Of a stretch of 64,000 nucleotides of DNA, positions 14,326 to 26,900 are shown in pieces. The stretch spans positions 1,194-65,193 of the forward strand of contig DBEYWP010000003.1 of assembly GCA_048183675.1 (NCBI GenBank). Reading direction: 5' to 3'. This stretch comes from Collinsella sp. (GTDB lineage Bacteria; Actinomycetota; Coriobacteriia; Coriobacteriales; Coriobacteriaceae). The position numbers were made by a program, and so were the translations under genes. The stretch's first letter is position 1, and each line of letters starts with the position of its first letter. The notes under the pieces are model-generated. The model worked only from the letters and a program-made list of their open reading frames with translations, made no database searches and was not told the DNA's origin.

Positions 14326-14400
14326 ACGGGGCGCCCCTTAGGCCTCGCAAATAAACACTTGTTAGCCTTATACCCGCAGATGGCGCTGGAGCTCGCACGG

Positions 14401-14432
14401 AATGCGATAAAGGGACTGCTCCTTTGTCGCAT
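14401..14432. repeat. palindromic repeat family 1 copy (slightly diverged)
   Basis: aatgcgataaagggactgctcctttgtcgcat lies 70 nt downstream of the MerR stop. Confidence 0.8.
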
Positions 14433-14501
14433 CGAAGTTGCGGTGGAATAGTTCCTGTTTGCACGCCCACTCGAGCTATTTAGGGACTATTTCACCGCAA
14501 G

Positions 14502-15368
14502 TTATTTGAGGGCGACGGGGATTTGGATACAGCAGAAGTCCTCTTGGTGAGACTCGTCGTAGCTCGTGGTGTCCAGGTAGCAAAAATCGAAAGCATTGCC
14601 GATGGGCTGGAGCGCGTGCCTGTCCATGCAGGCCACGATGGCGCGGATACCCTCGGGCTCGTACGGCATGCCCCAGCGACTCATGCACAGGTACGTGCCC
14701 TCGGGCAGCACCTCGACGCCAATCTCCGCCAGCTCGGCAGGATCGCTCGGCAGTATTTCCTCGGCACCACGCGGCAACACGGCAAAGGAACCGGCACCGG
14801 CGATGGGGTCGTCGGAATGCAGCGCCTCGCGACGCAGCATGGCGCCCCAACCGCGCATGGGGCGTGTGCCCGTGAGCGCACGCATGCGCAGAATCGCCCG
14901 CATGAGCGTGGGGTGCAGCATCGAGCGGCCACGCTCGATATCGCTCGGGAACTCCTCAAAGACCACGTAGCGGCGCTCGAATTGCTTGAGCTCCGGTTTG
15001 CCCTCGCGCTCGCGCCAATAGACCGCCTCGTCGTAAAAACTCAGCCGCTCCTGCACGCTCGCGCGCTCGGCTTTGAGCCCGGCAATCTGCTCGTCGAGCG
15101 CCTGCACCCGCGAGCGCAGGTGATCGGTCATCTCTCCAATGTCGAACGTCGAGGTCAGGCGATCGATCTCATCGAGTTCCAGTCCCAAGTCGCGCAGCAT
15201 GCAGATCAGACGCATGAGCGGGATCTGCGTGGGCGAATAGAAACGGTAGCTTTTTTCGTTAACCACGGCGGGTTTAAACAGACCGATCTTGTCGTAGTAG
15301 ATGAGCGTTTGGCGCGAAACGTTAAACAAGCTCGCCATCTCGCTAATCGCATACATACCCGTCTGCAT
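14502..15368 (-). CDS. MerR family transcriptional regulator with GyrI-like effector-binding domain
   Basis: The N-terminal HTH is MYAISEMASLFNVSRQTLIYYDKIGLFKP...YRFYS. A coiled coil and a C-terminal domain of about 150 aa resemble BmrR/GyrI-like regulators. Start at the ATG at 15368, with GGAGG immediately upstream. Confidence 0.8.
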   Translation of the reverse strand: MQTGMYAISEMASLFNVSRQTLIYYDKIGLFKPAVVNEKSYRFYSPTQIPLMRLICMLRDLGLELDEIDRLTSTFDIGEMTDHLRSRVQALDEQIAGLKAERASVQERLSFYDEAVYWREREGKPELKQFERRYVVFEEFPSDIERGRSMLHPTLMRAILRMRALTGTRPMRGWGAMLRREALHSDDPIAGAGSFAVLPRGAEEILPSDPAELAEIGVEVLPEGTYLCMSRWGMPYEPEGIRAIVACMDRHALQPIGNAFDFCYLDTTSYDESHQEDFCCIQIPVALK

Positions 15369-15459
15369 AGGTCCTCCCGACACACCCTTTGACACGAAAA
15401 GCCCGCCGCCCACAGGGGCAGCGGGCTCAAACACTACTCGTATCCTACCCTAAAGATGC

Positions 15460-16038
15460 CTATGACCAGCGCTTATAGTTGGCGCACGACACGCCGACGG
15501 CCTCGAGTGCCTTGGCGGCGATGTGATGCACCGCCTCATCGAGCGTGGCGGGGCCGTTGTAAAACGTGAGCATGGGCGGCATGAGCATGACACCCGGCAC
15601 GCGCGCCAGGCGTGCCATGTTGTCGACATGGATCGCACTGAAGGGCGTCTCGCGCACCATAAGCACCAGGCGGCGCTGCTCTTTCATCTGCACATCGGCC
15701 GCACGCAGCAACAGGTTTTCGCTGTAGCCGCTCGCGATGCCGGCGAGCGTCTTCATGGAGCAGGGAGCCACGATCATGCCGTCGACCGGATAGGTGCCGC
15801 TTGCGATGGCAGCGCCAATGTTCTTGTTGTCGTAGACCACATCGGCATAGCACGCAAACTCGTCGAGCGTCATGCCGAGCTCCTGCTCGATGGTGATCTC
15901 TCCCCCGCGCGTGACGACAAGCGCCGACTCAGCGCCGGCCTGGCGCAGGCATTTGAGGCATTCAAGGCCCAGTGCCGCACCGCTGGCGCCAGACACGCCA
16001 ACGACAATGCGACGGGGACGAACAGAAGACTCAGGCAT
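15460..16038 (-). CDS. ubiX: UbiX-family flavin prenyltransferase
   Basis: RIVVGVSGASGA...VAPCSMKTLAGIASG...L, with length 192 aa. AAGGAG lies upstream of the ATG. Confidence 0.9.
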   Translation of the reverse strand: MPESSVRPRRIVVGVSGASGAALGLECLKCLRQAGAESALVVTRGGEITIEQELGMTLDEFACYADVVYDNKNIGAAIASGTYPVDGMIVAPCSMKTLAGIASGYSENLLLRAADVQMKEQRRLVLMVRETPFSAIHVDNMARLARVPGVMLMPPMLTFYNGPATLDEAVHHIAAKALEAVGVSCANYKRWS

Positions 16039-16071
16039 GACAACTCCTTAACTACTTGGTAGGGCTACTTA

Positions 16072-17559
16072 CTAGAAGGCGAGCTCGGCGGCCCACTTGT
16101 CCTTGTCGATCTCCATGAACTGCGAGCGGATGAAGTTCTTCTTGAGGTTAAACGGAACCGTGCAGTCGAAGATGGCCTTGCAGGCGATACCGTGCTCGCG
16201 GATCGAAGGATCGAACGCGGGGTCGTTGGACGGATCGAGCACGTGGCAGTGGCAACCGGGGATGGTGATGAGGTCCACGTCGGCCTGGAAGCGCGTGGTC
16301 ATGGCCCACATCACGTCGCTCATATCGAAGATGTCGACATCCTCGTCGACAAGGATGACGTGCTTGAGCTCGGAGAACGCCGAGAAGGCGAGCATGGCGG
16401 CGTTGCGCTGACGGCCCTCGTCATTTTTGCTCGACTTCTTGAACTGCATGATGGCAACGAACTTGCCGCCACCGCAGGGAGCGGCGTGAACGTTGAGCAG
16501 GCGGCCCGGGATAGCGGTCTCGACCATCTTGTAGATGGAGGCCTCGGTGGGGATACCGGCCATGGACACGTGCTCGTGCGAAGGGCCGATGCAGCTCTCC
16601 ATAATGGGGTTGACGCGCGTGGTGACGGCGGTGATCTTGATCACCGGGCAGACCTTGGCGCCACCGGTGTAGCCGGGGAACTCGGGCATGGCGTAGCCGT
16701 GGCCGTTGACATCCTCGTTGATGGTCTCGTCGTGCATGAGGTAGCCCTCGAGCACGTACTCGGCATTGGCAATGCACTTCTGCGGAACGGTGACGCAGTC
16801 GGCAAGCTCGACGGCGCGGCCGCGCAGGGCGCCGGCGATCTGCAGCTCGTTGAAGCCGAGCGGCGTGGTGGGAGCCTCGAAGCCGCAGCACATGTACACG
16901 GCGGGGTCCAGGCCGATGGAGATGGAGATGGGCATATCCTCGCCGCGCTGGCAGTACTCGTCAAAGAACGCACCCAGGTGACGGCTGCCCGGGGTGATCC
17001 ACATGGCGAGCTTGTCCTTGTCGACGCAGGAGAAGCGGTGGATGGTTACGTCGGACTGGGTGCCATCGGGGCTCGTGCCATAGGCGAGGCCCATGGTGAT
17101 GTAGGGGCCGCCGTCAACGGGCGTGTTGGTGGGAGCGGGAACGATCTTGCGCAGGTCAAAGCCCTCGTCGGTCGCCTTGTACACGACCTCCTGGCAGTCG
17201 ACGTGCTTGCCCTCGGCGATCTGCTCGGGGGCGATCAGGTTCTCGAAGCGCTTGCCGATCTCGAGGCCCAGGTGCTCCTCGTCCAGGTCGAGCAGGGCGG
17301 CAACGCGCTTGCGGCTGGCAAGCATACCGATGCAGACCTTGGCGTCGTCAAAGCCCTTGACGTTGTTGAAGACCATCGCCGGACCCTCTTTGGTCGGGCG
17401 CATGACGGTGCCGCCAGCACCGACATGACGGTAGACGCCCGAGACCTCGGCATCGGGATCGACCTGGGTGTCGGTCTCGAGCAGCTGGCCCGGCATCTCA
17501 CGCAAAAAGTCGAGCGCGGAACGCAGGTCGTGGATCTGGGAAGCATCGGTAGTGGACAT
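16072..17559 (-). CDS. UbiD-family (prFMN-dependent) decarboxylase, hydroxyarylic-acid decarboxylase C-subunit-like
   Basis: VSGVYRHVGAGGTVMRPTKEGPAMVFNNVKGF, VVYKATDEGFDLRKIV, PEFPGYTGG and SMAGIPTEASI are blocks I associate with the LpdC/BsdC/VdcC clade (from memory, not searched). Start at the ATG at 17559, with AGGAG upstream. Confidence 0.9.
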   Translation of the reverse strand: MSTTDASQIHDLRSALDFLREMPGQLLETDTQVDPDAEVSGVYRHVGAGGTVMRPTKEGPAMVFNNVKGFDDAKVCIGMLASRKRVAALLDLDEEHLGLEIGKRFENLIAPEQIAEGKHVDCQEVVYKATDEGFDLRKIVPAPTNTPVDGGPYITMGLAYGTSPDGTQSDVTIHRFSCVDKDKLAMWITPGSRHLGAFFDEYCQRGEDMPISISIGLDPAVYMCCGFEAPTTPLGFNELQIAGALRGRAVELADCVTVPQKCIANAEYVLEGYLMHDETINEDVNGHGYAMPEFPGYTGGAKVCPVIKITAVTTRVNPIMESCIGPSHEHVSMAGIPTEASIYKMVETAIPGRLLNVHAAPCGGGKFVAIMQFKKSSKNDEGRQRNAAMLAFSAFSELKHVILVDEDVDIFDMSDVMWAMTTRFQADVDLITIPGCHCHVLDPSNDPAFDPSIREHGIACKAIFDCTVPFNLKKNFIRSQFMEIDKDKWAAELAF

Positions 17560-17701
17560 GGCGTACTCCTTTCGGGAGAGTGTCCGGCGACGGGGTGCCG
17601 CCGGACGGGGTAACGTAATGGGGCCGCGGCGCTCACAAATGGAGCGCTCGACCACTCGAAGTTCAAGCGCTTGGCTGCTTACAGCCGGGGCGCTCGACCG
17701 C

Positions 17702-19159
17702 TTACATCAGGCCAAAGAGGTGGAACCAGGCGGCCTCGACCAGCACGACGACAAAGACGACCGCGGTGAGGGGGATGCCCATGCGCATAGCCTCTTTGGA
17801 GGTGTAGCCGCCGGCGTCCTTGCCTTCGCCGATAAGGATCGGCAGGTTATGGAACGGCAGGATGTAGTGGATGTTGATGGACGTGAAGACGATGAGCGCC
17901 ACGGCGAGTGGGCTCACGCTGGAGCCGGCGGCAAAGCTGATAAATGCCGGCACGCACACGCCGAGCACGGCCATGACCGAGCCCATGAACATGTGGATGA
18001 TCATGGAAAGCGCGGCGACGAGCAGGGCGAACAGGAAGATGTTCTCAGGCACGGAGCTGGGGAGCACGACGTCGGCGATCCAGGCGTTCATGCCGGTGGC
18101 ACCGCCCACGGAGCCCACGGCCATGGCGGCCGTCAGGAACATGAGGGACTTGATGTCGACAGCGTTCCAGCTGGCGGGAGTGAGGACTTCGCCGATGATG
18201 GGCATGGCGAGAGCAACGCCAATGGCCAGGGTGACCCAGCCGATATAGTCGCCCGAGACGGTGAGCCACAGCGCGATGGCGATGACAAGCCACACGATGG
18301 TGCGGATCTCCTTGACGGAGAGCTTGCCGAGCGCGGCCTGCTTGGCCACGATCTGCTCGCGATCGTAGACGAGCTCCTTGCTGGGCTTAAAGAGGAAAAG
18401 GCCCAGGAACAGGGTGCACAGCAGCGCAACCAGCATAGGCACGCTCATGTACAGGAACCAGTCGACGAAGGACGGGCTCATGCCGCCGGCCTCGGCACTG
18501 TACTGCGCAACGAGCGGGTTAAGCGTGGAGTCGCCCGTCAGGAAGAACATGGAACCCGGGGCGGCAGCGGCAAACACGAGGAAGCCGAGCTTGCCCTTGT
18601 CGTCGTCACCGTAGCCGGCGGACTCGGCGATGACCGAGACGACGGCGAGGATGAGGAAGGCGCGGGGGAACGGATGCGGGATCAGCAGCGACAGCACAAA
18701 GGTGAGCGCGAAGATCGAGATGATGAGCGACTTGGCGTCGCGCACGAACTTGAGCATGAACGCGTAGGCGATGCGCTCGCCCAGGCCCGACTCCTTGACC
18801 GCGCTGGCGATGAGGTAGGCGCCGATGACGAGCCACATGGTGGCCTTGGTCCACGAGCTAAACGTGGAGGCGACCGTCGCCGAGATGCTCGCGGCGCCCG
18901 TGTCGTCCACGCACACCTTGAACAGGACGAGCAGTGCGCAGTAGAGCAGGCCCACAAAGCCCGGCTGTGCCACGCCGCATGCCCAGAACACCACCGTGGC
19001 GAGCGTCAGTGCCAGACAGGTCTGACCGCCGACCGTGAGCTCGACCGTCGAGCTCAGCTCCGCCAAAGGAAGAAACTTCACCAGCAAAAAGACAACGATA
19101 CCCAGCACAAAGCCAATTTCGCGCTTGGTGATCTTAAACGCCTTCTTTTCCGCTTCCAT
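17702..19159 (-). CDS. anion permease of the ion-transporter (DASS/SLC13- or ArsB/NhaD-like) superfamily
   Basis: 485 aa with about 12-14 TM segments and an internally duplicated architecture. GGGGAG lies upstream of the ATG. The subfamily was not resolved by eye. Confidence 0.65.
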   Translation of the reverse strand: MEAEKKAFKITKREIGFVLGIVVFLLVKFLPLAELSSTVELTVGGQTCLALTLATVVFWACGVAQPGFVGLLYCALLVLFKVCVDDTGAASISATVASTFSSWTKATMWLVIGAYLIASAVKESGLGERIAYAFMLKFVRDAKSLIISIFALTFVLSLLIPHPFPRAFLILAVVSVIAESAGYGDDDKGKLGFLVFAAAAPGSMFFLTGDSTLNPLVAQYSAEAGGMSPSFVDWFLYMSVPMLVALLCTLFLGLFLFKPSKELVYDREQIVAKQAALGKLSVKEIRTIVWLVIAIALWLTVSGDYIGWVTLAIGVALAMPIIGEVLTPASWNAVDIKSLMFLTAAMAVGSVGGATGMNAWIADVVLPSSVPENIFLFALLVAALSMIIHMFMGSVMAVLGVCVPAFISFAAGSSVSPLAVALIVFTSINIHYILPFHNLPILIGEGKDAGGYTSKEAMRMGIPLTAVVFVVVLVEAAWFHLFGLM

Positions 19160-19212
19160 CTCCCCACCTTTCTTGTTGGGGGCGCTCCGAATTCGCAGCC
19201 ATGTTGCCGCTT

Positions 19213-19242
19213 AAAAAGGGGCGCCCGTTATCGGACACCCCT
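19213..19242 (-). terminator. terminator- or attenuator-like hairpin about 55 nt upstream of the permease start
   Basis: On the minus strand AGGGGUGUCC-gauaac-GGGCGCCCCU (two G-U pairs) is followed by UUUUU. Confidence 0.4.
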
Positions 19243-19310
19243 TACGTTGCGCTGTGTTGCGGCAATACAGTCAAGCGGATTTTTTGGATGAGAAGCGATT
19301 CCCTAGACAA

Positions 19311-19375
19311 AAACCGTCACAACATTCGACGCTTTTCCTCGTTTTCGAGATTTTCGCCGAATGTTGTGACGGTTT
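19311..19375. repeat. 18-bp perfect inverted repeat with 29-nt loop
   Basis: aaaccgtcacaacattcg / cgaatgttgtgacggttt, verified base by base. It lies between the fusion-gene stop (19401) and the permease start (19159). Confidence 0.8.
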
Positions 19376-19378
19376 GGA

Positions 19379-19400
19379 TGTGGCAAAGGGACTGTCTTTT
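19379..19400. repeat. half-copy of palindromic repeat family 1
   Basis: tgtggcaaagggactgtctttt directly abuts the stop codon at 19401. Only the left arm is retained. Confidence 0.4.
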
Positions 19401-20348
19401 TTACATAGCGAGGGCCGTGCGGATGAATGGGTCGCCGAGGGCCTCGCGGAGCCAGGGGGCCAGCTGCTCGGGGTGACCCTGCAGGTAGCCTTTGAGCTCG
19501 GACGGAGCCACGCGACGCACTTCCGAGATCTCCTCTTGGTTGATATGCAGCTCGCCCGGCTCAACATGGGCAAGGTAGACCTCGCACCATTCGCACTCGC
19601 AGCGACCGTCGCCGTGGTCCTCGCGGTACACCACGTGTCCGAGGTGCTTGAGCTGATCGGGCTCGCGCGTAATGCCGAGCTCTTCGTTGATGCGGCGCGC
19701 CGTGGCGGCCGCGACGTCTTCCCCGGGGAGCGGATGGCCGGCGCAGCTATCGGCCAGCACCCCGCCCCACAGGCGCTTGAGCGGACTGCGGCGACAGAGC
19801 AGCAGGCGCGCGTCTTCGCCCCGGCCCTTGACCAAAAGCGTCAGAAATGCCTGATGCAGGATGCCCTCACCAGCATGGGCCTCGATGCGGTCGACGGGGC
19901 CAAGCGCCTCGCCGGTCGCAGCATCGACCGCCACGACCTCGGCGCCCGCACCGCCCTCATCCCAGCCGGCGCGCAGAATGCGGGCTGCGGCTTCCTCGAG
20001 CGCGGCGATGAGCTCCTTGGTGGTGTCGAGCACGCGCTGCAGGTCGTCACCGCTCGCTTGTTCAACATGAAAACCCGTGCTTGCAACTACCGGCACGCCA
20101 AAGCGCGTGGCCAGCGCCGCCGCGATATCGTGCGCCGGGATCTCGTCTCGATGGCACGGAACGGCTAGGATGCTCACCGTTGCCGTACGGCCGGGCTCGG
20201 GGCGCGGAATGGCCTGCGCCGTGGCGCCCAGGTGCGCAAACTCCGGCGAGCAGGCGTACACCGCCATGCCTCGCGGCGTCACCGTCAGCTGGGCCTCGAG
20301 CGCAAACTTGCCCTCGCCCACTGCAACCTTTGTCGTGTGCATACCCAT
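19401..20348 (-). CDS. two-domain protein: N-terminal LpdD-like (putative prFMN chaperone) domain fused to a type-1 isopentenyl-diphosphate isomerase (Nudix) domain
   Basis: Start set at the ATG at 20348 (AGGAG 5 nt upstream). The longer ORF would translate the palindrome at 20421. The C-terminal half carries AHAGEGILHQAF, RRSPLKRLWGGVLADSCAGHPLPGEDVAAATARRINEELGI (Nudix/IDI box), ECEWCEV and APW, which is colinear with E. coli Idi as I remember it. The N-terminal ~125 aa (..ACSPEFAHLGA..ILAVPCHRDE..VVASTGFHVE..) resembles LpdD-type proteins. That assignment is from memory only. Confidence 0.7.
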   Translation of the reverse strand: MGMHTTKVAVGEGKFALEAQLTVTPRGMAVYACSPEFAHLGATAQAIPRPEPGRTATVSILAVPCHRDEIPAHDIAAALATRFGVPVVASTGFHVEQASGDDLQRVLDTTKELIAALEEAAARILRAGWDEGGAGAEVVAVDAATGEALGPVDRIEAHAGEGILHQAFLTLLVKGRGEDARLLLCRRSPLKRLWGGVLADSCAGHPLPGEDVAAATARRINEELGITREPDQLKHLGHVVYREDHGDGRCECEWCEVYLAHVEPGELHINQEEISEVRRVAPSELKGYLQGHPEQLAPWLREALGDPFIRTALAM

Positions 20349-20420
20349 GGGATCTCCTGCCGCCCGCGATGTACCTGAGACCATCTTCGCCTGTATTGCG
20401 ACTATACAGGCAAGCCCTCC

Positions 20421-20452
20421 ATGTGACAAAGGGACTGCCCCTTTGTCACATT
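20421..20452. repeat. palindromic repeat family 1, intact copy
   Basis: atgtgacaaagggactgcccctttgtcacatt lies in a divergent promoter region between the starts at 20348 (-) and 20501 (+). Confidence 0.9.
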
Positions 20453-20500
20453 CTGTTAGAGTTGCAGGAAGTGAATCCCGCTTATTCATGCGACATTGGA

Positions 20501-21763
20501 GTGACAACCTTGACCGCTGCAACCACGCCTAAAAGTAAGTCAACCGCTGCCGCGCTCTCCCCCGCGCGCACCAAGCTCTGCCTGGCACTGCTCGTGCTGT
20601 TGGGATTCTCGCTCGGCTGCTCCGAGTTCGTGGTCATCGGCATCGAAAGCGACTTGGCGACGGAGCTCGGCATCTCGCTTGCCACCGCGGGCCAGCTTAT
20701 CAGCGTGTTCGCGCTTGTCTACGCTATCGCCACGCCGGTGCTTGCGCTCAGCACGGGGCGTTTTCGCCGCTACCAGCTGCTCGTGTGCTACAGCATCGTC
20801 TTTGTGCTCGGCAACCTGGTCATGGCGTTGGCGCCCAACTTCCAGGTGCTGTTTATCTCACGCATTGTCCTGGGCTCCGTCTCGGGCGCACTGCTCGCCG
20901 TTGGTGTGACGTACATCCCCGAGCTGCTGTCCCCGCAGCAAACTTCGCTTGCCATCTCGGTGGTATATGGTGCGTTTTCCGTAGCAATGGTCTTTGTGAC
21001 CTCGATTGGCAAGTTTGTGGCCGACACGCTCGATTGGCACGTGGCCATGTACGGCACGCTGACCTTTGCCGTTTTGATCTGCGGAGCGCTCGTGGCGTTT
21101 ATGCCGCGCGCCGGGCAAACCGACGAGCCTGCCACCTTTCGCGAGCAGGCGGGTCTGCTACGCGAGCCGAGCATCATCACCGGCATGCTCATCTTTTTGT
21201 TTGGCGTGGGATCGGTCTACGTATTCTACGGCTACGTGACGCCTTATCTTGAGCAGGTGCTGGGTATGGGCACCGTTCAGACAAGCACCACGCTTATGGC
21301 CTACGGCGTGTTCTGTCTGATCTCGAACATCCTGGGCGGATGGATCGATGCACGCTTTGGCATGAAGGCGCTGCTTGTGACGTTTGTGCTGCAGGCTGCG
21401 GCGCTACTCGGGCTGTTTGCTGTGGGCGGCACCATGCCGCTCGCACTTGTCTTTGTCTTTAGCTTGGCGCTGCTCATGTACCTGTTCTCGGTATCGTGCA
21501 TCACGCACTTTATGGACGTAGCACGCAGCCGCCATCCCAAGTCGATGGTTCTCGCAAGTTCGGTTGAGCCCATGGCGTTTAACGTCGGCATCTCGTTTGG
21601 CACCGCAGTGGGCGGCGCCGTGGTAAGCAGCGTTGGCATTGCGTACGTGGGCGCAGTGGGCGCCGCGTTCTCGCTTGTCGCCTGGGCGCTTACGCTGGTG
21701 ACGATTAAGCTGGCTCGTTGGGAGCGCCGTCGTCAATCAGCACAGCCCCGGATGCAGGCATAG
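20501..21763 (+). CDS. MFS transporter (DHA1-like efflux type)
   Basis: 12 TM segments, and the N-terminal LGFSLGCSEFVVIGIESDLATELGISLATAGQLISVFALVYAIATPVLA is typical. There is no in-frame ATG near the N-terminus, so the GTG at 20501 (or TTG at 20510) was chosen. The upstream part of the ORF covers the palindrome and an antisense gene. Confidence 0.8.
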   Translation: MTTLTAATTPKSKSTAAALSPARTKLCLALLVLLGFSLGCSEFVVIGIESDLATELGISLATAGQLISVFALVYAIATPVLALSTGRFRRYQLLVCYSIVFVLGNLVMALAPNFQVLFISRIVLGSVSGALLAVGVTYIPELLSPQQTSLAISVVYGAFSVAMVFVTSIGKFVADTLDWHVAMYGTLTFAVLICGALVAFMPRAGQTDEPATFREQAGLLREPSIITGMLIFLFGVGSVYVFYGYVTPYLEQVLGMGTVQTSTTLMAYGVFCLISNILGGWIDARFGMKALLVTFVLQAAALLGLFAVGGTMPLALVFVFSLALLMYLFSVSCITHFMDVARSRHPKSMVLASSVEPMAFNVGISFGTAVGGAVVSSVGIAYVGAVGAAFSLVAWALTLVTIKLARWERRRQSAQPRMQA

Positions 21764-21848
21764 GGGCGAACATAGCCCAAGGTGGCGAGCAACCGGTGAA
21801 AACCGTCCCATACGAGTAGTGTTTATCCGCCTGCAAGCTCCAGCAGTG

Positions 21849-21945
21849 CAATTTCGTGTACTTCAGATACACACTTTTCCACTATTTCGTGTATTCCAAG
21901 TACATGAAATCGTACTAAACTATGTATCTGAAGTACACGAAATTG
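21849..21945. promoter_or_regulatory. nested palindrome: 22-bp perfect outer inverted repeat plus an inner imperfect inverted repeat, four copies of ATTTC(G/A)TGTA
   Basis: The outer arms are caatttcgtgtacttcagatac (21849..21870) and gtatctgaagtacacgaaattg (21924..21945). The inner pair is atttcgtgta (21884..21893) and tacatgaaat (21901..21910). The segment is AT-rich and ends 13 nt before the ATPase start codon. Confidence 0.6.
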
Positions 21946-21958
21946 GAAAGGCGGCCCC

Positions 21959-23329
21959 ATGCGCAGATCAATCGAATCCGTTATCGAATCATGGGCGACA
22001 AAGGACGCGTCGCGCCCCATCCTCATCCGTGGTGCGCGACGCGTAGGCAAAACGTACGTTGCCGAGGAAATCGGCAGACGAATCGCCGGCGATGCGTTTG
22101 TCAAACTCGACTTTCAGACCGATCTTGAGCTGATCGCTCCGCTGTTCGACTGTCCCACCGACGACGTTGACGCCATCGTGGCGCGAATCTCAGACTATAA
22201 ACGCACCCCCATTCGCAAAGAAACCGCCTTCATCCTGTTTGACGAGGTGCAGCTCTGCGAACGGGCGCTCAACTCGCTTCGCTTTTTTTCGGGTTCGGGC
22301 TGGCGCATATGCGCGACCGGCAGTCAGCTCGGCGTCGCCACGCGCAAGCGCAAGTTGCCTTTTCCCAGCGGCGTTCGTCAAGAGACCATGCATCCTATGT
22401 CGTTCGAGGAGTTTCTCTGGGCGCTCGACGAGGAGCAGATGGCCAATGCCATTCGTACCCACGCCGGCACGCTCGAGACCTACGCCGCGCACCAAGCCGC
22501 GCTCAGCCTGTTTCATCGATACCAGATCGTGGGCGGCATGCCCGCCGCCGTCAACGCATATCGCAAGACGTTATCCATCGAGGATGCGCGCGTCGAGCAG
22601 CGCGAAATCGACGAGACCTATACCGCCGATATGACCGACCCCGAAAACGGGATCAGCGGCGTGGCGGCGCGCAAGGTCTGGCGCTCCATTCCGTCCCAGC
22701 TGTTGAGATCGTCCACAAAAAAATTCAAGTACTCCGAGGTCGAACGCGGAGGCCGTCGCGCCAAGCTTATCGAGCCGCTCGACTGGCTCGAAGGCGCCGG
22801 CATCATATCGGTCAACAACCTGACCGAAGGCATCGAGCCTCCCCTCGTTCCCTTCGACGACGAAGATGGAAGTTTCTTTAAGGTCTATCTTCTCGATACC
22901 GGCCTCATGTTCTACAAACTCGGCATCAACCCGCGGCTCTGGCTCGACCTCAAAGAGGATTCCGCCATAGCGCTATCTTCCGACTTCCGAGGCGCCCTGG
23001 CGGAAAACTCGGTCATGCAAGCATTTTCGGGCAATAGCTTGCAGACGTATTACTGGGTGCCGCCGTCGTCTTGGAAGACGACCGGCGAGCTCGATTTTTT
23101 ACTTCAGACCGACCGTATGGAAATTGTGCCCGTCGAAGTAAAGTCCGCACGTAACGTGCGCGCGAGAACCCTCAGGTCGTTTATGGACAAAGCCCGATCG
23201 CCATATGCCTACATTTTGTCCGAGAACAATTTTTCCCGCAGCGAAACCGATGACGGGCGCGAGCTGCGCCACCTCCCCTTGTACGCAGCGGGCTTTATTG
23301 GAGCAAACTGCCTCAAGAGCAGTCTGTAA
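21959..23329 (+). CDS. AAA+ ATPase with C-terminal DUF4143-type domain
   Basis: Walker A is ILIRGARRVGKTY and Walker B-like is ILFDEVQ. The C-terminal GELDFLLQ...VPVEVKS is typical of the AAA_14/DUF4143 architecture. Confidence 0.8.
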   Translation: MRRSIESVIESWATKDASRPILIRGARRVGKTYVAEEIGRRIAGDAFVKLDFQTDLELIAPLFDCPTDDVDAIVARISDYKRTPIRKETAFILFDEVQLCERALNSLRFFSGSGWRICATGSQLGVATRKRKLPFPSGVRQETMHPMSFEEFLWALDEEQMANAIRTHAGTLETYAAHQAALSLFHRYQIVGGMPAAVNAYRKTLSIEDARVEQREIDETYTADMTDPENGISGVAARKVWRSIPSQLLRSSTKKFKYSEVERGGRRAKLIEPLDWLEGAGIISVNNLTEGIEPPLVPFDDEDGSFFKVYLLDTGLMFYKLGINPRLWLDLKEDSAIALSSDFRGALAENSVMQAFSGNSLQTYYWVPPSSWKTTGELDFLLQTDRMEIVPVEVKSARNVRARTLRSFMDKARSPYAYILSENNFSRSETDDGRELRHLPLYAAGFIGANCLKSSL

Positions 23330-23362
23330 GCCCTGCACGACCGCCTAGAAAGGAAGCCGCTC

Positions 23363-23809
23363 ATGCAACGCATTCTTTTTATCTGCTATGGAAATATCTG
23401 TCGCTCGACGATGGCTGAGTCGGTGTTTACCGAGCTCGTGCGCCGCGCTGGGCGCGAGGCGGAGTTTGTCATCGATTCCGCTGCGACCTCGACCGAGGAG
23501 ATCGGCAACCCGCCACACCACGGTACCGTTGCCAAGCTGAGCGAGGTTGGGATTCCCGTCGTCGCACATCGTGCACGTCAGGTGCGTCGCGCGGAGTATG
23601 GCGACTGGGACCACATTGTCTATATGGACGACGAGAACGCCCGCGGCCTGTACCGAATTTTTGGGAAGGACCCCGATGGCAAGATCTCGCGCCTGCTCGA
23701 TTGGACCGATCGCCCCGGCGACGTGGCCGATCCCTGGTACACCGGCAATTTCGACGCCACCTACCGCGATGTACTCGCCGGTTGCACCGCTATGCTCGAG
23801 CAGCTGTAG
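23363..23809 (+). CDS. low-molecular-weight protein-tyrosine phosphatase
   Basis: The P-loop ILFICYGNICRSTMAE (CX5R-S/T) and the DPWY aspartate loop are present. Length 148 aa. Confidence 0.9.
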   Translation: MQRILFICYGNICRSTMAESVFTELVRRAGREAEFVIDSAATSTEEIGNPPHHGTVAKLSEVGIPVVAHRARQVRRAEYGDWDHIVYMDDENARGLYRIFGKDPDGKISRLLDWTDRPGDVADPWYTGNFDATYRDVLAGCTAMLEQL

Positions 23810-23852
23810 GCGCTCGGGCGGCGCGGGCACACGGGCCACGCCATCGGCATAA

Positions 23853-23948
23853 AACGAGCGTGGATTTTCTCCCACTTTGAGCGTTCGAGCGCGCTCTAAA
23901 CGGGAGAAAATCCACGCTCGTTATCTCGGTGGGAGAAAATCAACGCTC
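23853..23948. repeat. 21-bp perfect inverted repeat plus a third partial arm copy
   Basis: aacgagcgtggattttctccc (23853..23873) pairs with gggagaaaatccacgctcgtt (23902..23922). The loop contains the palindrome gagcgcgctc. A third arm-like copy, gggagaaaatcaacgctc, sits at 23931..23948. Confidence 0.8.
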
Positions 23949-23951
23949 ATG

Positions 23952-23983
23952 AATGTGACAAAGGGACTGTCCCTTTGTCACAT
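23952..23983. repeat. palindromic repeat family 1, intact copy
   Basis: aatgtgacaaagggactgtccctttgtcacat lies 13 nt downstream of the stop of the minus-strand ATPase gene. Confidence 0.9.
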
Positions 23984-23995
23984 CCGGGACTGACC

Positions 23996-25357
23996 CTAGA
24001 CCGGCTTGACCTCCAGCTTAATCCCCTTGGCACAGGAGTCGCCCAAAACATCCGAAAGGGCCCAGGTCGCATATAGCGGCAAATAGAGAACCGCTCCGTT
24101 GCGCTCAACGTTGCCTCTCGAGAAAACAATCCCGAGCCTTACGCCATATTCAGCCGTATCAAGCACATGACCGAGCGCAGCGTGCGCGTGGTAATAGGAG
24201 CCCGATTTAACCTCGATCGGAACAGCCGTCCCATCCGGTCCATCGACCACAAAGTCCACTTCACCGCGCTTTTTTGTCTGATAGTAGTAAAGCTGGCGAT
24301 TTTGGGCAGCCAGCTGCTGGGCCACCACGTTTTCGTAAATGCCGCCCAGATTGGGCTCCTTGCTATCAAGATACGCCGCTTGGGCGACTCCAACGGGGTA
24401 GCGCGCCATCAACATGCCCGTATCCGATTGATATAGCTTGAACTGCGATGGCCGTGCCGTCTTGAGCAGGGGCGATTTTGGCTCGGTTACGATATCGGCT
24501 TTGAGGGCAACGCCGGCATCGACAAGCCATACAAAATCTCGCTGATACTTCTCGTAGTGAGCCTTGGGGTCAATGGAATTGAGCACGAAGCGCTTGTTTT
24601 CGCCCCCGAGCATAATAGGGAGCTGATCGTAGATGCTCTGCACCTGAAGGGCTCGCCCGCTTGCATACTTGGAGATATCCCGTCGGTACTGTTCGTTGAG
24701 CTCTGACTGCAGCTGACGAACAGAGGCAAGGTCGCCCCGCGTGTCAAGGAAACGCTGCACGACCTCTGGCATTCCGCCGACAACGGTATAGGTCCTGAAG
24801 TTTGCCATCATCGCGTCATGAATGTAACCAGGAATGGGCTTCTCGTTGATGCACGCGTCGCGTATCGTTTGGCGAGCCCCTTCGCTCACCCCGATTGCCC
24901 AGCAAAACTCCTCAAAATCGAGCGGGAACATCCTAAGCTCGTGGACATACCCCACGGGATAGGACCTGACGCCCTTGAACTGGGTCCCGAGCATTGACCC
25001 CGAAAACGCCCAGCGGCACCTCCCGTCCTCAACAAGGAACTTTGCCATCGTCATGATGTCGGGGGCCTCTTGGACCTCATCGATAAACACGAGCGTTTTG
25101 CCTGGTGCAATCGACTTTCCCGAAAGAAGCGTCACTCTGCTGATGAAATCATCGGCATCCCGCGCCTCGAGAAGAGCATCTTTTGCCTGGCGATTTTCCA
25201 TGAGGTTAAGCTCGATGTAGGTTGCATGGCTGGCTTTGCCAAACGCGCGAATCGAATAGCTTTTGCCGATCTGGCGAGAACCCGTGATGAATAAGGCCTT
25301 TTGCTCGGTAGACTTCAGCCAACGCTCCAGCTCTGCCGCTATTTTCCTACGCAGCAT
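23996..25357 (-). CDS. AAA+ ATPase with C-terminal DUF4143-type domain (paralog of 21959..23329)
   Basis: Walker A is ITGSRQIGKSY and Walker B-like is VFIDEVQ. The C-terminus has GEVDFVV...VPIEVKSG. Start at MLRRK (ATG at 25357), with GGGGAGAG upstream. Confidence 0.8.
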   Translation of the reverse strand: MLRRKIAAELERWLKSTEQKALFITGSRQIGKSYSIRAFGKASHATYIELNLMENRQAKDALLEARDADDFISRVTLLSGKSIAPGKTLVFIDEVQEAPDIMTMAKFLVEDGRCRWAFSGSMLGTQFKGVRSYPVGYVHELRMFPLDFEEFCWAIGVSEGARQTIRDACINEKPIPGYIHDAMMANFRTYTVVGGMPEVVQRFLDTRGDLASVRQLQSELNEQYRRDISKYASGRALQVQSIYDQLPIMLGGENKRFVLNSIDPKAHYEKYQRDFVWLVDAGVALKADIVTEPKSPLLKTARPSQFKLYQSDTGMLMARYPVGVAQAAYLDSKEPNLGGIYENVVAQQLAAQNRQLYYYQTKKRGEVDFVVDGPDGTAVPIEVKSGSYYHAHAALGHVLDTAEYGVRLGIVFSRGNVERNGAVLYLPLYATWALSDVLGDSCAKGIKLEVKPV

Positions 25358-25379
25358 AGGCTCTCCCCTCAGTGTCATC

Positions 25380-25467
25380 AAATGAAATGCAAAGTTTATA
25401 CGCTTGATTATCGATGAAACGCAGAATTTTTAGAACCTAAAATCGGATGAAATGCAGAGATTTTAGA
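25380..25467 (-). promoter_or_regulatory. three phased direct repeats (~21-23 nt, period 32-33 bp) upstream of the second ATPase gene
   Basis: aaatgaaatgcaaagtttata (25380), cgatgaaacgcagaatttttaga (25412) and ggatgaaatgcagagattttaga (25445). The segment is AT-rich. Confidence 0.55.
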
Positions 25468-26687: not shown

Positions 26688-26771
26688 GAGGATCTCCCTT
26701 GGTTCGGGCACGGCGCAGCAGCGCCACAGTGCGACTAAGTGTAGCGCAGGGGACGTTTGCAGCGTCGAGCG

Positions 26772-26799
26772 GTTACGGCGTTTGGCAAAACGCCGTAAC
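26772..26799. promoter_or_regulatory. 12-bp perfect palindrome with 4-nt loop in the pdxK/marR divergent region
   Basis: gttacggcgttt-ggca-aaacgccgtaac lies 18 nt upstream of the predicted -35. Confidence 0.4.
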
Positions 26800-26816
26800 T
26801 TAATAAGTTTGGTACC

Positions 26817-26845: not shown

Positions 26846-26900
26846 GGTTAGGCACAAAACAATTCCACTACCTAACTAAAGAAAGGAGCAACACTAATTC

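What the first reader, a model, noticed from the sequence alone, without database searches (positions are those of the whole stretch)
19401..20348. LpdD-like domain fused to a type-1 IPP isomerase (Nudix) domain at the head of a UbiD/UbiX cluster
Seen in the sequence:
- It is one 315-aa ORF with a good RBS.
- The C-terminal ~175 aa carry the IDI-1 landmarks in order: AH..G.LHQAF, RR...K..W.G......C.GHP..GE.......RR...ELGI, E-x-E and APW.
- The N-terminal ~125 aa (ACSPEFAHLGA, ILAVPCHRDE, VVASTGFHVE) look to me like the LpdD-type partner proteins of hydroxyarylic-acid decarboxylases.

Established knowledge: UbiX builds prFMN from FMNH2 and a dimethylallyl (mono/di)phosphate donor. UbiD enzymes need prFMN delivered and matured. 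LpdD-type proteins have been proposed as prFMN chaperones.

Inference: a fusion would physically couple supply of the prenyl donor (IPP to DMAPP isomerisation, or Nudix-type hydrolysis of DMAPP to DMAP) with handover of the cofactor. I am not aware of such a fusion having been described. A sequence detail also stands out. The Cys preceding GHP is shifted by one residue relative to E. coli Idi as I remember it (SC-A-GHP versus VC-GHP), which could indicate altered chemistry.
Basis: partly seen in the sequence, partly recalled or inferred. Interest (0 to 1): 0.78.

Follow-up and report, generated by a model that had tools for sequence, protein, structure and literature searches.

The report
LpdD chaperone fused to IDI-like domain
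A gut bacterium (Collinsella) encodes one protein that joins a chaperone for the prenylated-flavin cofactor to an enzyme-like domain that handles the cofactor's five-carbon prenyl donor; the protein sits beside the decarboxylase and flavin prenyltransferase that use that cofactor, and I found no paper describing this link.

Summary
Window 20348..19401 (minus strand) is a real 315-aa gene. Residues 1-127 are an LpdD-type prFMNH2 chaperone, shown by Pfam PF21758, a profile hit to LpdD crystal structures, a Foldseek top hit to LpdD, and a conserved Mn2+ triad. Residues 129-315 have the type-1 IPP isomerase (IDI-1) fold with all metal, diphosphate, Glu/Tyr/Trp residues. The catalytic Cys67 position, however, is Ala; the Cys sits one residue earlier.

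The gene heads a row: DASS transporter, AroY-type UbiD, UbiX, MerR. This row is kept in 68/68 Collinsella loci with enough flank and, with DUF554 in place of the DASS transporter, in Coriobacterium glomerans (54% identity).

The LpdD-IDI link recurs. More distant fusions lie after UbiX. One fusion (P0354) uses a canonical Cys-Cys IDI and probably arose independently. A split form has overlapping IDI-like and LpdD genes after UbiX.

The Cys-to-Ala variant is not specific to the fusion. It marks a Coriobacteriia clade that also occurs stand-alone in housekeeping contexts.

Best reading: an accessory protein that couples prenyl-donor supply to prFMNH2 hand-over. Whether the C-domain is an isomerase or a DMAPP-to-DMAP hydrolase is open. 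No paper on the fusion was found. It is a new variant of a known kind and of moderate interest.

The parts
20401..20429 (-). Promoter-like site, TTGTCA-17 nt-TATAGT, about 50 nt upstream of the start codon
   Evidence: 10 of 12 consensus matches. It is the only such site in 14300-20800, where shuffles give a mean of 0.9, so it is suggestive only.
20353..20357 (-). Shine-Dalgarno AGGAG, 4 nt before ATG 20348
   Evidence: Read directly from the sequence.
19401..20348 (-). Fusion gene, 315 aa plus stop: LpdD-like domain joined to an IDI-1-like Nudix domain
   Evidence: The ORF is intact in all 80 best genome loci, and homologues range from 52 to 96% identity.
19968..20348 (-). LpdD-type prFMNH2-chaperone domain (residues 1-127); metal triad His39, His66, Asp68
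   Evidence: PF21758 E 3.9e-18. Profile A3 hits LpdD structures 8po5, 8pzh and 8p4w at E 2e-4 over nearly the full length. The AF2 model has pLDDT 94, and its Foldseek top hit is LpdD 8po5_A, TM 0.69-0.80 across LpdD chains. The triad aligns to LpdD H35/H61/D63 (PMC10865409) and is invariant in A2.
19941..19967 (-). Gly/Ala-rich linker (about residues 128-136); low model confidence; site of frameshift variants
   Evidence: pLDDT is below 50 at residues 130-135. Variants P0126 and P0121 go out of frame here.
19404..19964 (-). IDI-1-fold Nudix domain (residues 129-315)
   Evidence: NF002995 scores 127.0 bits, exactly the cut-off of 127, while TIGR02150 scores 74 against 105.8. E. coli Idi structures hit at E 1.6e-14 by phmmer. 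Foldseek gives 1hx3 at E 6e-14, TMt 0.83.
19734..19745 (-). Codons TGC GCC GGC CAT = Cys202-Ala203-Gly204-His205; Ala occupies the catalytic Cys67 position of E. coli Idi
   Evidence: Gap-free alignments. The motif is conserved across the fusion family and the wider 'ADSCAGHP' clade.
19309..19375 (-). Strong hairpin (21-bp stem) followed by UUUUU: terminator-like element just after the fusion gene
   Evidence: -40.8 kcal/mol, z -7.5, and 0 of 200 shuffles fold as well. caught only part of it.
17702..19159 (-). DASS / Na-sulfate-symporter-family anion transporter (485 aa)
   Evidence: PF00939 E 2.4e-34 and TIGR00785 E 2.5e-38. The same transporter family sits in the distant clusters L088, L093, L095 and L100.
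16072..17562 (-). UbiD-family decarboxylase of AroY (protocatechuate decarboxylase) type; the ORF could start as far up as 17655
   Evidence: UbiD_N, UbiD and UbiD_C domains. The nearest solved structures are the AroY entries 5o3m, 5o3n and 5ny5, E 9e-167 to 7e-164.
15460..16038 (-). UbiX flavin prenyltransferase (192 aa)
   Evidence: NF004685 scores 214.5 bits against a cut-off of 188, and TIGR00421 scores 208.6 against 108.9.
14502..15434 (-). MerR-family transcriptional regulator with a long C-terminal extension
   Evidence: MerR_1 E 2.6e-15. A MerR gene occupies the same position in Coriobacterium glomerans L087.

Best explanation
The gene encodes a two-domain accessory protein for a prFMN-dependent protocatechuate/gallate-type decarboxylase system in a Collinsella aerofaciens-like bacterium.

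**Shown**
- The N-terminal domain is an LpdD-type chaperone with the LpdD metal triad.
- The C-terminal domain has the type-1 IPP isomerase fold, with the metal site, the diphosphate site and the Glu/Tyr/Trp set intact, but with Ala at the catalytic Cys position.
- The gene sits directly upstream of a DASS transporter, an AroY-type UbiD, UbiX and a MerR regulator.
- The LpdD plus IDI-like pairing recurs in different gene orders and in a probably independent fusion.

**Inferred**
- When the decarboxylase genes are expressed, the IDI-like domain binds the C5 prenyl diphosphate pool and raises the supply of the dimethylallyl donor for UbiX, most simply by IPP-to-DMAPP isomerisation.
- UbiX then prenylates FMNH2.
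- The LpdD domain, probably a dimer as in L. plantarum, captures the oxygen-sensitive prFMNH2 and passes it to the apo-decarboxylase.
- The fusion keeps the two steps that flank UbiX at a fixed 1:1 ratio and close together.
For: **Domain identity**
- N-terminal domain.
- C-terminal domain.
- LpdD binds prFMNH2 specifically and helps to activate UbiD enzymes; its H35/H61/D63 site is conserved (PMC10865409). These align to invariant H39/H66/D68 here.
- All Idi residues except Cys67 are kept: H25, H32, H69, E114, E116, Y104, W161, R51, K55, R83, E87.

**Conserved synteny**
- 68 of 68 Collinsella loci with at least 6 kb downstream keep fusion-DASS-UbiD-UbiX-MerR.
- C. glomerans has fusion-UbiD-DUF554-UbiX-MerR at 54% identity.

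**Recurrence of the LpdD-IDI link**
- L088: UbiD-EcdD-DASS-UbiX-fusion.
- L093: UbiD-EcdD-...-fusion.
- L091: DUF554-UbiX-fusion. Its IDI half has the canonical Cys-Cys motif and is nearest to stand-alone canonical IDIs, so this fusion is probably independent.
- L095: UbiX-NUDIX-LpdD as separate genes overlapping by 14 nt.
- L100: UbiX-LpdD-UbiD2-NUDIX.

**Background.** UbiX needs a dimethylallyl phosphate donor, and how cells supply DMAP is only partly known: NudJ/B/F/I acting on DMAPP, or ThiM acting on prenol, in E. coli (PMC12359138).
Against: - No activity was measured.
- The catalytic Cys67 of Idi is Ala here.
- TIGR02150 is below its cut-off, and NF002995 is exactly at its cut-off.
- The stand-alone members of the same Cys-to-Ala clade sit in housekeeping contexts (secA-prfB-tkt-NUDIX-ftsEX). 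In L100 the decarboxylase island simply abuts that gene, so one route to the fusion is a deletion between neighbours.
- A strong terminator-like hairpin separates the fusion gene from the transporter-UbiD-UbiX genes, so co-transcription is not assured.
- Variants lacking the LpdD core, or frameshifted in the linker, are common in Collinsella populations.
- The AF2 model gives no confident inter-domain interface (pTM 0.68; the linker is below pLDDT 50).
Confidence: 0.6

Rival explanations
1. The C-terminal domain is not an isomerase. It is a Nudix-type phosphohydrolase that converts DMAPP (and perhaps IPP) to the monophosphate DMAP, the substrate bacterial UbiX actually uses. The fusion would then deliver DMAP to UbiX and collect prFMNH2 from it.
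For: - Ala replaces the catalytic Cys67, while the diphosphate and Mg2+ ligands are kept.
- Among about 250 IDI-like representatives, loss of Cys67 goes almost perfectly with an acidic residue at position 63 or 64: 81 of 82 sequences without Cys67 have one, against 1 of 168 with Cys67. This looks like a changed catalytic set.
- The Nudix box is nearly canonical: G-x5-E-x7-R-R-I-N-E-E-L-G-I.
- One stand-alone clade member sits 3 nt after ribBA, a flavin biosynthesis gene.
- In E. coli, DMAP is made by generic Nudix hydrolases (PMC12359138).
- From memory, not held in the library: Ishibashi et al. 2022, Biosci Biotechnol Biochem, described an IPP/DMAPP-specific Nudix hydrolase of Methanosarcina mazei and proposed that it feeds prFMN synthesis.
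Against: - The 'EE' in the Nudix box is common in ordinary IDIs, so it does not discriminate (PMC5389931).
- Tyr104 and Trp161, which in Idi serve protonation and carbocation chemistry, stay invariant.
- The probably independent P0354 fusion uses a canonical Cys-Cys IDI. This suggests that ordinary IDI chemistry is what pairs usefully with LpdD.
- The NCBIfam model for the Methanosarcina hydrolase (NF041653) scores only 18 bits against a cut-off of 300.
- The covariation count is not corrected for shared ancestry.
Confidence: 0.2
2. The fusion is a neutral accident. The IDI-like gene is the ordinary housekeeping IDI of Coriobacteriia. A decarboxylase island landed next to it, and a deletion joined lpdD to it, without any functional coupling of the two halves.
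For: - Stand-alone clade members lie in a conserved housekeeping row, tkt-NUDIX-ftsE-ftsX-ctpA-rnr.
- In L100 the UbiD/UbiX/LpdD island abuts exactly that gene, and losing UbiD2 would fuse LpdD to NUDIX.
- prfB lies near the cluster in C. glomerans, as it lies near the stand-alone gene in L098.
- Deletion and frameshift variants circulate.
Against: - The pairing recurs in at least four arrangements, with the fusion placed at the head or at the tail of the cluster.
- There is a separate overlapping NUDIX-LpdD pair in the opposite order.
- There is a fusion whose IDI half belongs to a different, canonical IDI lineage.
- The fusion is kept intact over a 52-96% identity range.
Confidence: 0.12
3. 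The IDI-like domain acts on the prenylated flavin itself. It would use the Glu/Tyr acid-base pair and the Trp cation-pi site on the prenyl moiety, for example to assist ring closure, C1' proton abstraction during maturation, or repair of mis-isomerised prFMN, rather than acting on free IPP or DMAPP.
For: - The domain is physically joined to a prFMNH2-binding domain.
- IDI chemistry is protonation of an isoprenoid double bond to a tertiary carbocation. From my own knowledge, this is the same type of step as the second half of the UbiX reaction.
- The normal thiol base is missing.
- A clade member lies next to ribBA.
Against: - This is speculative.
- The diphosphate-binding Arg/Lys residues and the Mg2+ ligand are all kept, which fits a small prenyl diphosphate.
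- Stand-alone members lie in housekeeping contexts.
- The canonical-IDI fusion P0354 fits the prenyl-donor reading better.
- Known prFMN maturases such as PhdC have a different fold (PMC13040415).
Confidence: 0.05
4. The single ORF is an assembly or frameshift artefact that joins two genes.
For: Some database entries at 92-99% identity are split or truncated: 168-aa LpdD-only forms and 215-221-aa Nudix-only forms.
Against: - All 80 best genome loci encode residues 1-315 in one frame, including complete genomes and isolates such as C. aerofaciens ATCC 25986.
- Full-length homologues extend down to 52% identity, including the finished genome of Coriobacterium glomerans PW2.
- The split forms are explained by a frameshift in the G-rich linker or by in-frame deletions.
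Confidence: 0.01

Closest known systems
LpdD of Lactiplantibacillus plantarum (lp_0272), the prFMNH2-binding chaperone of the gallate decarboxylase LpdC; PDB 8po5, 8pzh, 8pzo, 8p4w; Pfam PF21758
   Same: - The fold matches: LpdD is the Foldseek top hit, with TM 0.69-0.80 across LpdD chains.
- The profile match runs over nearly the full length.
- The His/His/Asp metal triad is conserved.
- It sits next to UbiX and belongs to an AroY/LpdC-type decarboxylase system.
   Different: - Sequence identity is only about 14%.
- Here the domain is covalently joined to a 187-residue IDI-like domain. L. plantarum LpdD is a free protein of about 120-130 residues, and PMC10865409 contains none of the words 'fused', 'Nudix' or 'isomerase'.
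- The host is an obligate anaerobe of the gut (from my own knowledge).
Type-1 isopentenyl-diphosphate isomerase (E. coli Idi, PDB 1hx3 and 1nfs; human IDI1/2)
   Same: - Same fold (TMt 0.83).
- Same metal site, diphosphate site, Glu116, Tyr104 and Trp161.
- NCBI names the whole protein IPP isomerase.
   Different: - The catalytic Cys67 is Ala, and the only nearby Cys corresponds to the first, non-catalytic Cys of the common Cys-Cys motif.
- Asn64 is Asp.
- It scores at or below the curated IDI cut-offs.
- It is fused to LpdD.
Generic Nudix DMAPP phosphohydrolases (E. coli NudJ, NudB, NudF, NudI) and the Methanosarcina mazei IPP/DMAPP-specific Nudix hydrolase (NCBIfam NF041653; the latter recalled from memory)
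   Same: They belong to the Nudix superfamily, act on C5 prenyl diphosphates, and are proposed suppliers of DMAP for UbiX (PMC12359138).
   Different: - The window protein is far closer to IDI-1 than to these. NF041653 scores 18 bits against a cut-off of 300.
- None of them is known to be fused to, or clustered with, a prFMN chaperone.
VdcD / BsdD / EcdD small subunits of hydroxyarylic acid decarboxylases (PF26358)
   Same: They are small accessory proteins encoded in UbiD/UbiX clusters.
   Different: This is an unrelated family of about 66-69 residues. It is absent from the window's cluster, and in related clusters it is present as a separate gene alongside the fusion or alongside LpdD.
PhdC / YclD prFMN maturases
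   Same: They are accessory proteins of UbiD/UbiX operons that improve UbiD activation (PMC13040415).
   Different: They have a flavin-reductase-like fold and oxidise the prFMN radical. They share no homology with either half of this protein.

Membership tests
LpdD-type prFMNH2 chaperone (PF21758) | Match to the family profile above the curated threshold | tested here: met
   PF21758 scores 65.7 bits against a cut-off of 27, E 3.9e-18, covering residues 12-119 of the protein and 2-112 of the 115-position model.
LpdD-type prFMNH2 chaperone (PF21758) | Fold of the LpdD crystal structure (six-stranded sheet plus two helices, Pba3/4-like) | tested here: met
   The AF2 model of residues 1-128 has pLDDT 94. 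Its Foldseek top hit is 8po5_A (LpdD) at E 1.3e-6; LpdD chains give TM 0.66-0.80; the next hits are Pba3/4 and PAC3.
LpdD-type prFMNH2 chaperone (PF21758) | Conserved Mn2+ site His35/His61/Asp63 (PMC10865409) | tested here: met
   In the profile alignment to LpdD, these residues align to His39, His66 and Asp68. All three are invariant in 15 fusion proteins.
LpdD-type prFMNH2 chaperone (PF21758) | Genomic association with UbiX and an AroY/LpdC-type UbiD | tested here: met
   and the distant loci.
LpdD-type prFMNH2 chaperone (PF21758) | Selective binding of reduced prFMN and activation of apo-UbiD | not testable with these tools
   This needs anaerobic reconstitution with purified protein.
Type-1 IPP isomerase (IDI-1) | Match to curated equivalog models | tested here: inconclusive
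   NF002995 scores 127.0 bits, exactly the cut-off of 127. TIGR02150 scores 74.3 bits, below its cut-off of 105.8.
Type-1 IPP isomerase (IDI-1) | IDI-1 fold | tested here: met
   Foldseek gives 1hx3_B at E 6.2e-14, TMt 0.83, rmsd 2.7 over 179 columns. Human IDI1/2 also match.
Type-1 IPP isomerase (IDI-1) | Metal ligands His25, His32, His69, Glu114, Glu116 | tested here: met
   These are His158, His165, His205, Glu251 and Glu253, all invariant.
Type-1 IPP isomerase (IDI-1) | Catalytic Cys67 (E. coli) / Cys139 (yeast), two residues before the metal-binding His | tested here: not met
   The position is Ala203. Cys202 aligns to Val66, with no gaps in W-x-G-V-x-x-[DN]-S-x-x-G-H-P. The position is Ala or Ser throughout the fusion family and the 'ADSCAGHP' clade.
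Type-1 IPP isomerase (IDI-1) | Glu116/Tyr104 acid pair, Trp161, and diphosphate and Mg2+ ligands Arg51, Lys55, Arg83, Glu87 | tested here: met
   The corresponding residues are Glu253, Tyr241, Trp299, Arg187, Lys191, Arg219 and Glu223. Lys21 is Arg154.
Type-1 IPP isomerase (IDI-1) | IPP/DMAPP isomerase activity | not testable with these tools
   This needs an enzyme assay.
Nudix pyrophosphohydrolase | Nudix box GX5EX7REUXEEXGU | tested here: inconclusive
   Residues 204-226 read G-x5-E-x7-R-R-I-N-E-E-L-G-I, so only the first Glu of 'RE' is replaced by Arg. The same RRxxEExG box is usual in canonical IDIs (PMC5389931), so it does not separate hydrolase from isomerase.
Methanosarcina-type IPP/DMAPP Nudix hydrolase (NF041653) | Match to the equivalog model | tested here: not met
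   18 bits against a cut-off of 300.
VdcD/BsdD/EcdD decarboxylase D subunit (PF26358) | Match to the family; small protein of about 66-69 residues | tested here: not met
   Pfam gives no hit. A separate EcdD_BsdD gene coexists with the fusion or with LpdD in L088, L093 and L100.

The most novel reading that the evidence does not exclude
The IDI-fold domain has lost the isomerase thiol and gained an Asp at position 64. On this reading it is a dedicated enzyme of prFMN biosynthesis rather than of isoprenoid biosynthesis, most plausibly a DMAPP-to-DMAP phosphohydrolase. Tethered to the LpdD chaperone, it would form with UbiX a small assembly line: donor in, prFMNH2 out. The wider 'ADSCAGHP' clade, now annotated as IPP isomerase across Coriobacteriia, would then be the missing dedicated DMAP source for UbiX in these bacteria.
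Probability: 0.2. Interest if true: 0.8.

Novelty: new variant of a known kind. Interest (0 to 1): 0.55.

Why it matters
**For UbiD enzymology and engineering.** UbiD-family decarboxylases are wanted for biocatalysis, for example protocatechuate to catechol on the way to muconate. They are often inactive when expressed elsewhere because prFMN supply and loading fail. LpdD was recognised as a prFMNH2 chaperone only in 2024 (PMC10865409). How cells provide the dimethylallyl phosphate donor to UbiX is still only partly known (PMC12359138).

**What the fusion adds.** A natural fusion, an apparently independent second fusion and a split adjacent form all join an IDI-type domain to LpdD next to UbiX. 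This is comparative evidence that donor supply and cofactor hand-over are functionally linked. It gives a ready-made construct to co-express with difficult UbiD enzymes.

**For annotation.** A whole clade annotated as 'IPP isomerase' lacks the catalytic cysteine. This matters for annotation, and possibly for finding a dedicated DMAP-forming enzyme.

**For the gut microbiome.** The system sits in Collinsella, an abundant human gut genus (from my own knowledge), where it probably decarboxylates dietary phenolic acids.

Tried and rejected
1. **Nudix-box argument.** I first thought the 'EE' in RRxxEELG made the Nudix box more hydrolase-like than Idi. The motif table of 150 representatives shows that EE is the rule in ordinary IDIs and that E. 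coli's 'YE' is the exception (PMC5389931). I dropped the argument.
2. **Single-sequence search of the N-half against the PDB.** phmmer found nothing, even at E 10. Only the profile search and the fold search reach LpdD.
3. **Foldseek with the full-length model.** The first 50 rows were all IDI or Nudix structures, so the N-half needed a second model.
4. **The one genome-contig scan.** It was saturated by near-identical Collinsella genomes, with the best 80 at 99-100% identity, and gave no taxonomic breadth. Breadth came from the representatives search and the contig look-ups instead.
5. **Rfam scan of 14000-22000.** No riboswitch or other family appeared, only a chance miRNA hit at E 0.048.
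6. **MerR-type promoter before the transporter gene.** I looked for one with a long spacer in 19160-19300 and found nothing convincing by eye.
7. **EcdD/VdcD-like small ORF.** None is present in the 241-nt gap after the fusion gene.
8. **Literature.** Searches for the fusion, for a Collinsella UbiD system and for the isoprenoid pathway of Collinsella found nothing relevant. The M. mazei Nudix paper is not held, so I cite it from memory only.
9. **Other limits.** I could not test whether Collinsella has another IDI or which isoprenoid pathway it uses. I also could not read the model coordinates to measure where Cys202 and Asp200 point.
Full report
**1. The observation**

The finding's coordinates hold one ORF on the minus strand. 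It runs from ATG 20348 to the stop at 19403-19401 and is 315 aa. AGGAG lies 4 nt before the ATG, and a second ATG two codons in could also be the start. GC3 is 0.79, like the neighbouring genes.

Pfam finds two domains. PF21758 covers residues 12-119 (E 3.9e-18, 65.7 bits against a cut-off of 27). NUDIX covers residues 165-298 (E 5.4e-16). This copy of Pfam calls PF21758 'PAC_bac'; the newer labels returned with contig look-ups call it 'LpdD_chaperone'.

NCBIfam's IPP isomerase equivalog NF002995 scores 127.0 bits, exactly its cut-off. TIGR02150 scores 74 bits, below its cut-off of 105.8.

The ORF is not an artefact:
- All 80 best genome loci encode residues 1-315 in one frame. They include complete Collinsella genomes and C. 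aerofaciens ATCC 25986.
- Full-length homologues run down to 52% identity, including the finished genome of Coriobacterium glomerans PW2.
- The window is therefore from a Collinsella aerofaciens-like bacterium.

**2. The N-terminal half is LpdD-like**

A single-sequence search of the PDB found nothing. A profile of 13 N-terminal halves hits the three LpdD sequences of L. plantarum (8po5, 8pzh/8pzo, 8p4w) at E 2e-4. The match covers profile positions 6-122 against LpdD residues 8-123.

An AlphaFold2 model of residues 1-128 has pLDDT 94. Its best Foldseek match in the PDB is LpdD 8po5_A (E 1.3e-6). LpdD chains give TM 0.66-0.80, followed by the proteasome assembly chaperones Pba3/4 and PAC3. The LpdD paper reports the same structural neighbours (PMC10865409).

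That paper identifies a strictly conserved Mn2+ site, His35/His61/Asp63. H35A abolishes prFMNH2 binding in vitro. In the profile alignment these residues fall on His39 (AHLGA) and on His66 and Asp68 (CHRDE), all invariant in the 15-protein alignment.

VdcD/BsdD/EcdD is an unrelated family of 66-69 residues (PF26358). In related clusters it is encoded separately, alongside the fusion or alongside LpdD.

**3. The C-terminal half has the IDI-1 fold but lacks the catalytic cysteine**

phmmer hits E. coli Idi structures at about 1e-14. The full-length model (pLDDT 84.9) matches 1hx3 with TMt 0.83, then human IDI1/2 and E. coli YfcD.

Aligned without gaps to E. coli Idi, the domain keeps these residues:

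| Role in Idi | E. coli residues | State here |
|---|---|---|
| Metal ligands | His25, His32, His69, Glu114, Glu116 | kept |
| Acid partner | Tyr104 | kept |
| Cation-pi residue | Trp161 | kept |
| Diphosphate and Mg2+ ligands | Arg51, Lys55, Arg83, Glu87 | kept |

The exception is the catalytic Cys67. D-S-C-A-G-H-P aligns with N-S-V-C-G-H-P, so position 67 is Ala203 and the Cys (202) sits at position 66. Most IDI-1 proteins read C-C-[GS]-H-P. The retained Cys therefore corresponds to the first, non-catalytic Cys of that pair. It is better described as loss of the catalytic Cys.

I first thought the Nudix box (RRINEELGI) looked more hydrolase-like than Idi's. The motif table shows that 'EE' is normal in IDIs, so I dropped that argument (PMC5389931).

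**4. Surroundings**

Downstream on the same strand lie four genes:

| Gene | Coordinates | Evidence |
|---|---|---|
| DASS-family anion transporter | 19159-17702 | PF00939, TIGR00785 |
| UbiD enzyme | 17562-16072 | nearest solved relatives are AroY protocatechuate decarboxylases, E about 1e-167 |
| UbiX | 16038-15460 | above both UbiX family cut-offs |
| MerR-family regulator | 15434-14502 | MerR_1 |

This is the LpdC/LpdB/LpdD type of system. All 68 Collinsella loci with at least 6 kb of downstream sequence keep the five genes in this order.

The fusion gene has a promoter-like site at 20429-20401. A strong hairpin with a U-tract follows it at 19375-19309 (-40.8 kcal/mol, z -7.5). It may therefore be transcribed separately from the transporter-UbiD-UbiX-MerR genes. 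No riboswitch or other Rfam family lies in 14000-22000.

**5. The LpdD-IDI link recurs**

This is the main new evidence. The loci examined were:

| Locus | Gene order | Note |
|---|---|---|
| L087, C. glomerans | fusion-UbiD-DUF554-UbiX-MerR | 54% identity |
| L088 | LysR (divergent), UbiD-EcdD-DASS-UbiX-fusion | 43% identity in the C-half |
| L093 | UbiD-EcdD-...-DASS::flavoprotein-153 aa-fusion | |
| L091 | DUF554-UbiX-fusion (P0354) | IDI half reads T-C-C-S-H-P |
| L095 | DASS-UbiX-NUDIX(196 aa)-LpdD(130 aa) | separate genes overlapping by 14 nt, order reversed |
| L100-102 | UbiD-EcdD-DASS-UbiX-LpdD-UbiD2-NUDIX | |

The IDI half of P0354 is closest to stand-alone canonical IDIs at 50-55% identity. 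No member of the Cys-to-Ala clade appears among its 25 best hits. P0354 is thus most likely an independent fusion.

Two probably independent fusions, a split overlapping pair and several gene orders argue for selection on keeping an IDI-type function beside LpdD and UbiX.

**6. The Cys-to-Ala variant is a clade feature, not a fusion feature**

A profile of the distant C-halves retrieves 45 stand-alone clusters of 180-218 aa that read 'ADSCAGHP'. Many come from Coriobacteriia MAGs and are annotated as IPP isomerase. In score they are sharply separated from canonical 'SNSCCSHP' proteins.

- One such gene lies in a housekeeping row, secA-prfB-yitT-tktN-tktC-NUDIX-ftsE-ftsX-ctpA-rnr.
- Another stands alone.
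- One sits 3 nt after ribBA.
- In L100 the decarboxylase island abuts exactly the NUDIX-ftsEX row. This suggests how the Collinsella-type fusion could have arisen, by loss of the intervening gene.

Across about 250 IDI-like representatives, absence of Cys67 goes with an acidic residue at position 63 or 64. This holds in 81 of 82 sequences lacking Cys67, against 1 of 168 sequences that have it. The count is not corrected for phylogeny. It hints at a changed catalytic set in all Cys-less IDI-like proteins.

**7. Mechanism**

Shown:
- The identity of the two domains.
- The state of the active-site residues.
- The conserved neighbourhood.
- The recurrent pairing.

Inferred:
- The protein serves cofactor supply for the AroY-type decarboxylase.
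- The IDI-like domain binds C5 prenyl diphosphate and provides the dimethylallyl donor for UbiX.
- The LpdD domain takes up prFMNH2 and passes it to the apo-enzyme, as shown for L. plantarum LpdD (PMC10865409).

The chemistry of the C-domain is open. Three points favour isomerisation:
- Tyr104, Glu116 and Trp161 are invariant.
- The clade also occurs in housekeeping contexts.
- A canonical IDI was recruited independently.

Four points favour DMAPP-to-DMAP hydrolysis:
- The thiol is lost.
- An Asp is gained at position 64.
- One clade member lies beside ribBA.
- Generic Nudix enzymes make DMAP in E. coli (PMC12359138).

An IPP/DMAPP-specific Nudix hydrolase reported from M. mazei would be a further precedent. 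I recall that paper from memory only, it is not held in the library, and its NCBIfam model scores only 18 bits here.

My estimates are about 0.6 for the prFMN-supply accessory role overall. Within it, isomerase is somewhat more likely than hydrolase.

**8. Comparison with the known, and novelty**

Both domains belong to known families, and the cluster is a known type. What is new:
- the covalent and genomic coupling of LpdD with an IDI-type domain;
- the recognition that this domain, and a whole Coriobacteriia clade annotated as IPP isomerase, lacks the catalytic Cys.

The LpdD paper contains none of the words 'fused', 'Nudix' or 'isomerase', and the PhdC paper likewise has none of 'fused', 'Nudix' or 'isomerase'. 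Full-text searches for prFMN, UbiX or LpdD together with Nudix or IDI terms, and for Collinsella with UbiD or AroY, found nothing on it. The proteins themselves are in public databases in hundreds of genomes.

I rate this a new variant of a known kind, with interest 0.55. It is a useful and testable lead for prFMN and UbiD specialists and for annotation, but it is not a new kind of system.

**9. Population variants**

Collinsella metagenome data hold several variants:
- an in-frame deletion that removes the LpdD core (residues 19-117), giving 215-aa proteins (P0064 and P0051, with 405 and 113 member sequences);
- frameshifts in the G-rich linker, giving 168-aa LpdD-only products (P0126, P0121);
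- other truncated or chimeric forms.

These may be real polymorphisms or assembly errors. They explain the 'split' entries in the searches, and they show that the locus is accessory.

Noticed in passing
Proteins P0064, P0051, P0126, P0121, P0060, P0112 (relatives of window 19401-20348): Collinsella population variants of the fusion. An in-frame deletion of residues 19-117, between two 'ALE' repeats, leaves a 215-aa IDI-like protein without the LpdD core (clusters of 405 and 113 member sequences). Frameshifts in the G-rich linker give 168-aa LpdD-only products. There is also a 236-aa internal deletion and a chimera with another domain (PF25137).
   Followed up: partly
About 250 IDI-like representatives (P0227-P0477); window residues 199-205: Among IDI-1-like proteins, loss of the catalytic Cys67 goes almost perfectly with an Asp or Glu at position 63 or 64: 81 of 82 sequences without Cys67 have one, against 1 of 168 with Cys67. 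Roughly a fifth of the nearest 150 representatives lack Cys67 (motifs such as DGTVASHP and DISIATHP), yet several reach or come close to the NF002995 IPP isomerase cut-off.
   Followed up: partly
L090:239-2100: A stand-alone 'ADSCAGHP' IDI-like gene (P0236, 201 aa) starts 3 nt after ribBA (DHBP synthase / GTP cyclohydrolase II). This hints at a link to flavin biosynthesis. The contig is only 3.3 kb.
   Followed up: no
L093:4425-6383: A 652-aa called gene combines a DASS transporter (Na_sulph_symp/CitMHS) with a UbiX-type Flavoprotein domain. It is either a transporter-UbiX fusion or a gene-calling merge.
   Followed up: no
L081-L083:7251-8396 and L084-L086:8001-8390: Stand-alone LpdD homologues of 129-131 aa, 73-77% identical to the window's N-half, lie with no UbiD or UbiX within 8 kb. 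One follows a HAD-family hydrolase and precedes an AIRC (PurE-like) gene and a pyruvate:ferredoxin-oxidoreductase-like pair. JGI names it 'IPP isomerase', probably by transfer from the fusion.
   Followed up: no
L100-L102:1146-7618: A Coriobacteriia cluster holds two UbiD paralogues (479 and 493 aa), EcdD, DASS, UbiX and LpdD, placed directly upstream of the housekeeping NUDIX-ftsE-ftsX-ctpA-rnr row.
   Followed up: partly
window 19309-19375 (minus strand): There is a very stable 21-bp hairpin plus U-tract between the fusion gene and the transporter gene (-40.8 kcal/mol, z -7.5). The 241-nt intergenic region is identical in five Collinsella strains compared.
   Followed up: partly
window 762-7730 (minus strand): A giant 2322-aa ORF carries nine FctA (Spy0128-like isopeptide) domains and a SpaA prealbumin-like domain. 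It is probably a surface adhesin or pilin-like protein.
   Followed up: no
window 21959-25381: Two AAA_14/DUF4143 ATPase genes on opposite strands (21959-23329 on the plus strand, 23996-25381 on the minus strand) flank a low-molecular-weight phosphotyrosine phosphatase / ArsC-like gene (23363-23809). These, with an MFS transporter gene (within 20081-21763) and a phosphomethylpyrimidine-kinase-like gene (25863-26855, minus strand), separate the fusion gene from the MarR-ABC-ABC genes that directly adjoin it in C. glomerans.
   Followed up: no
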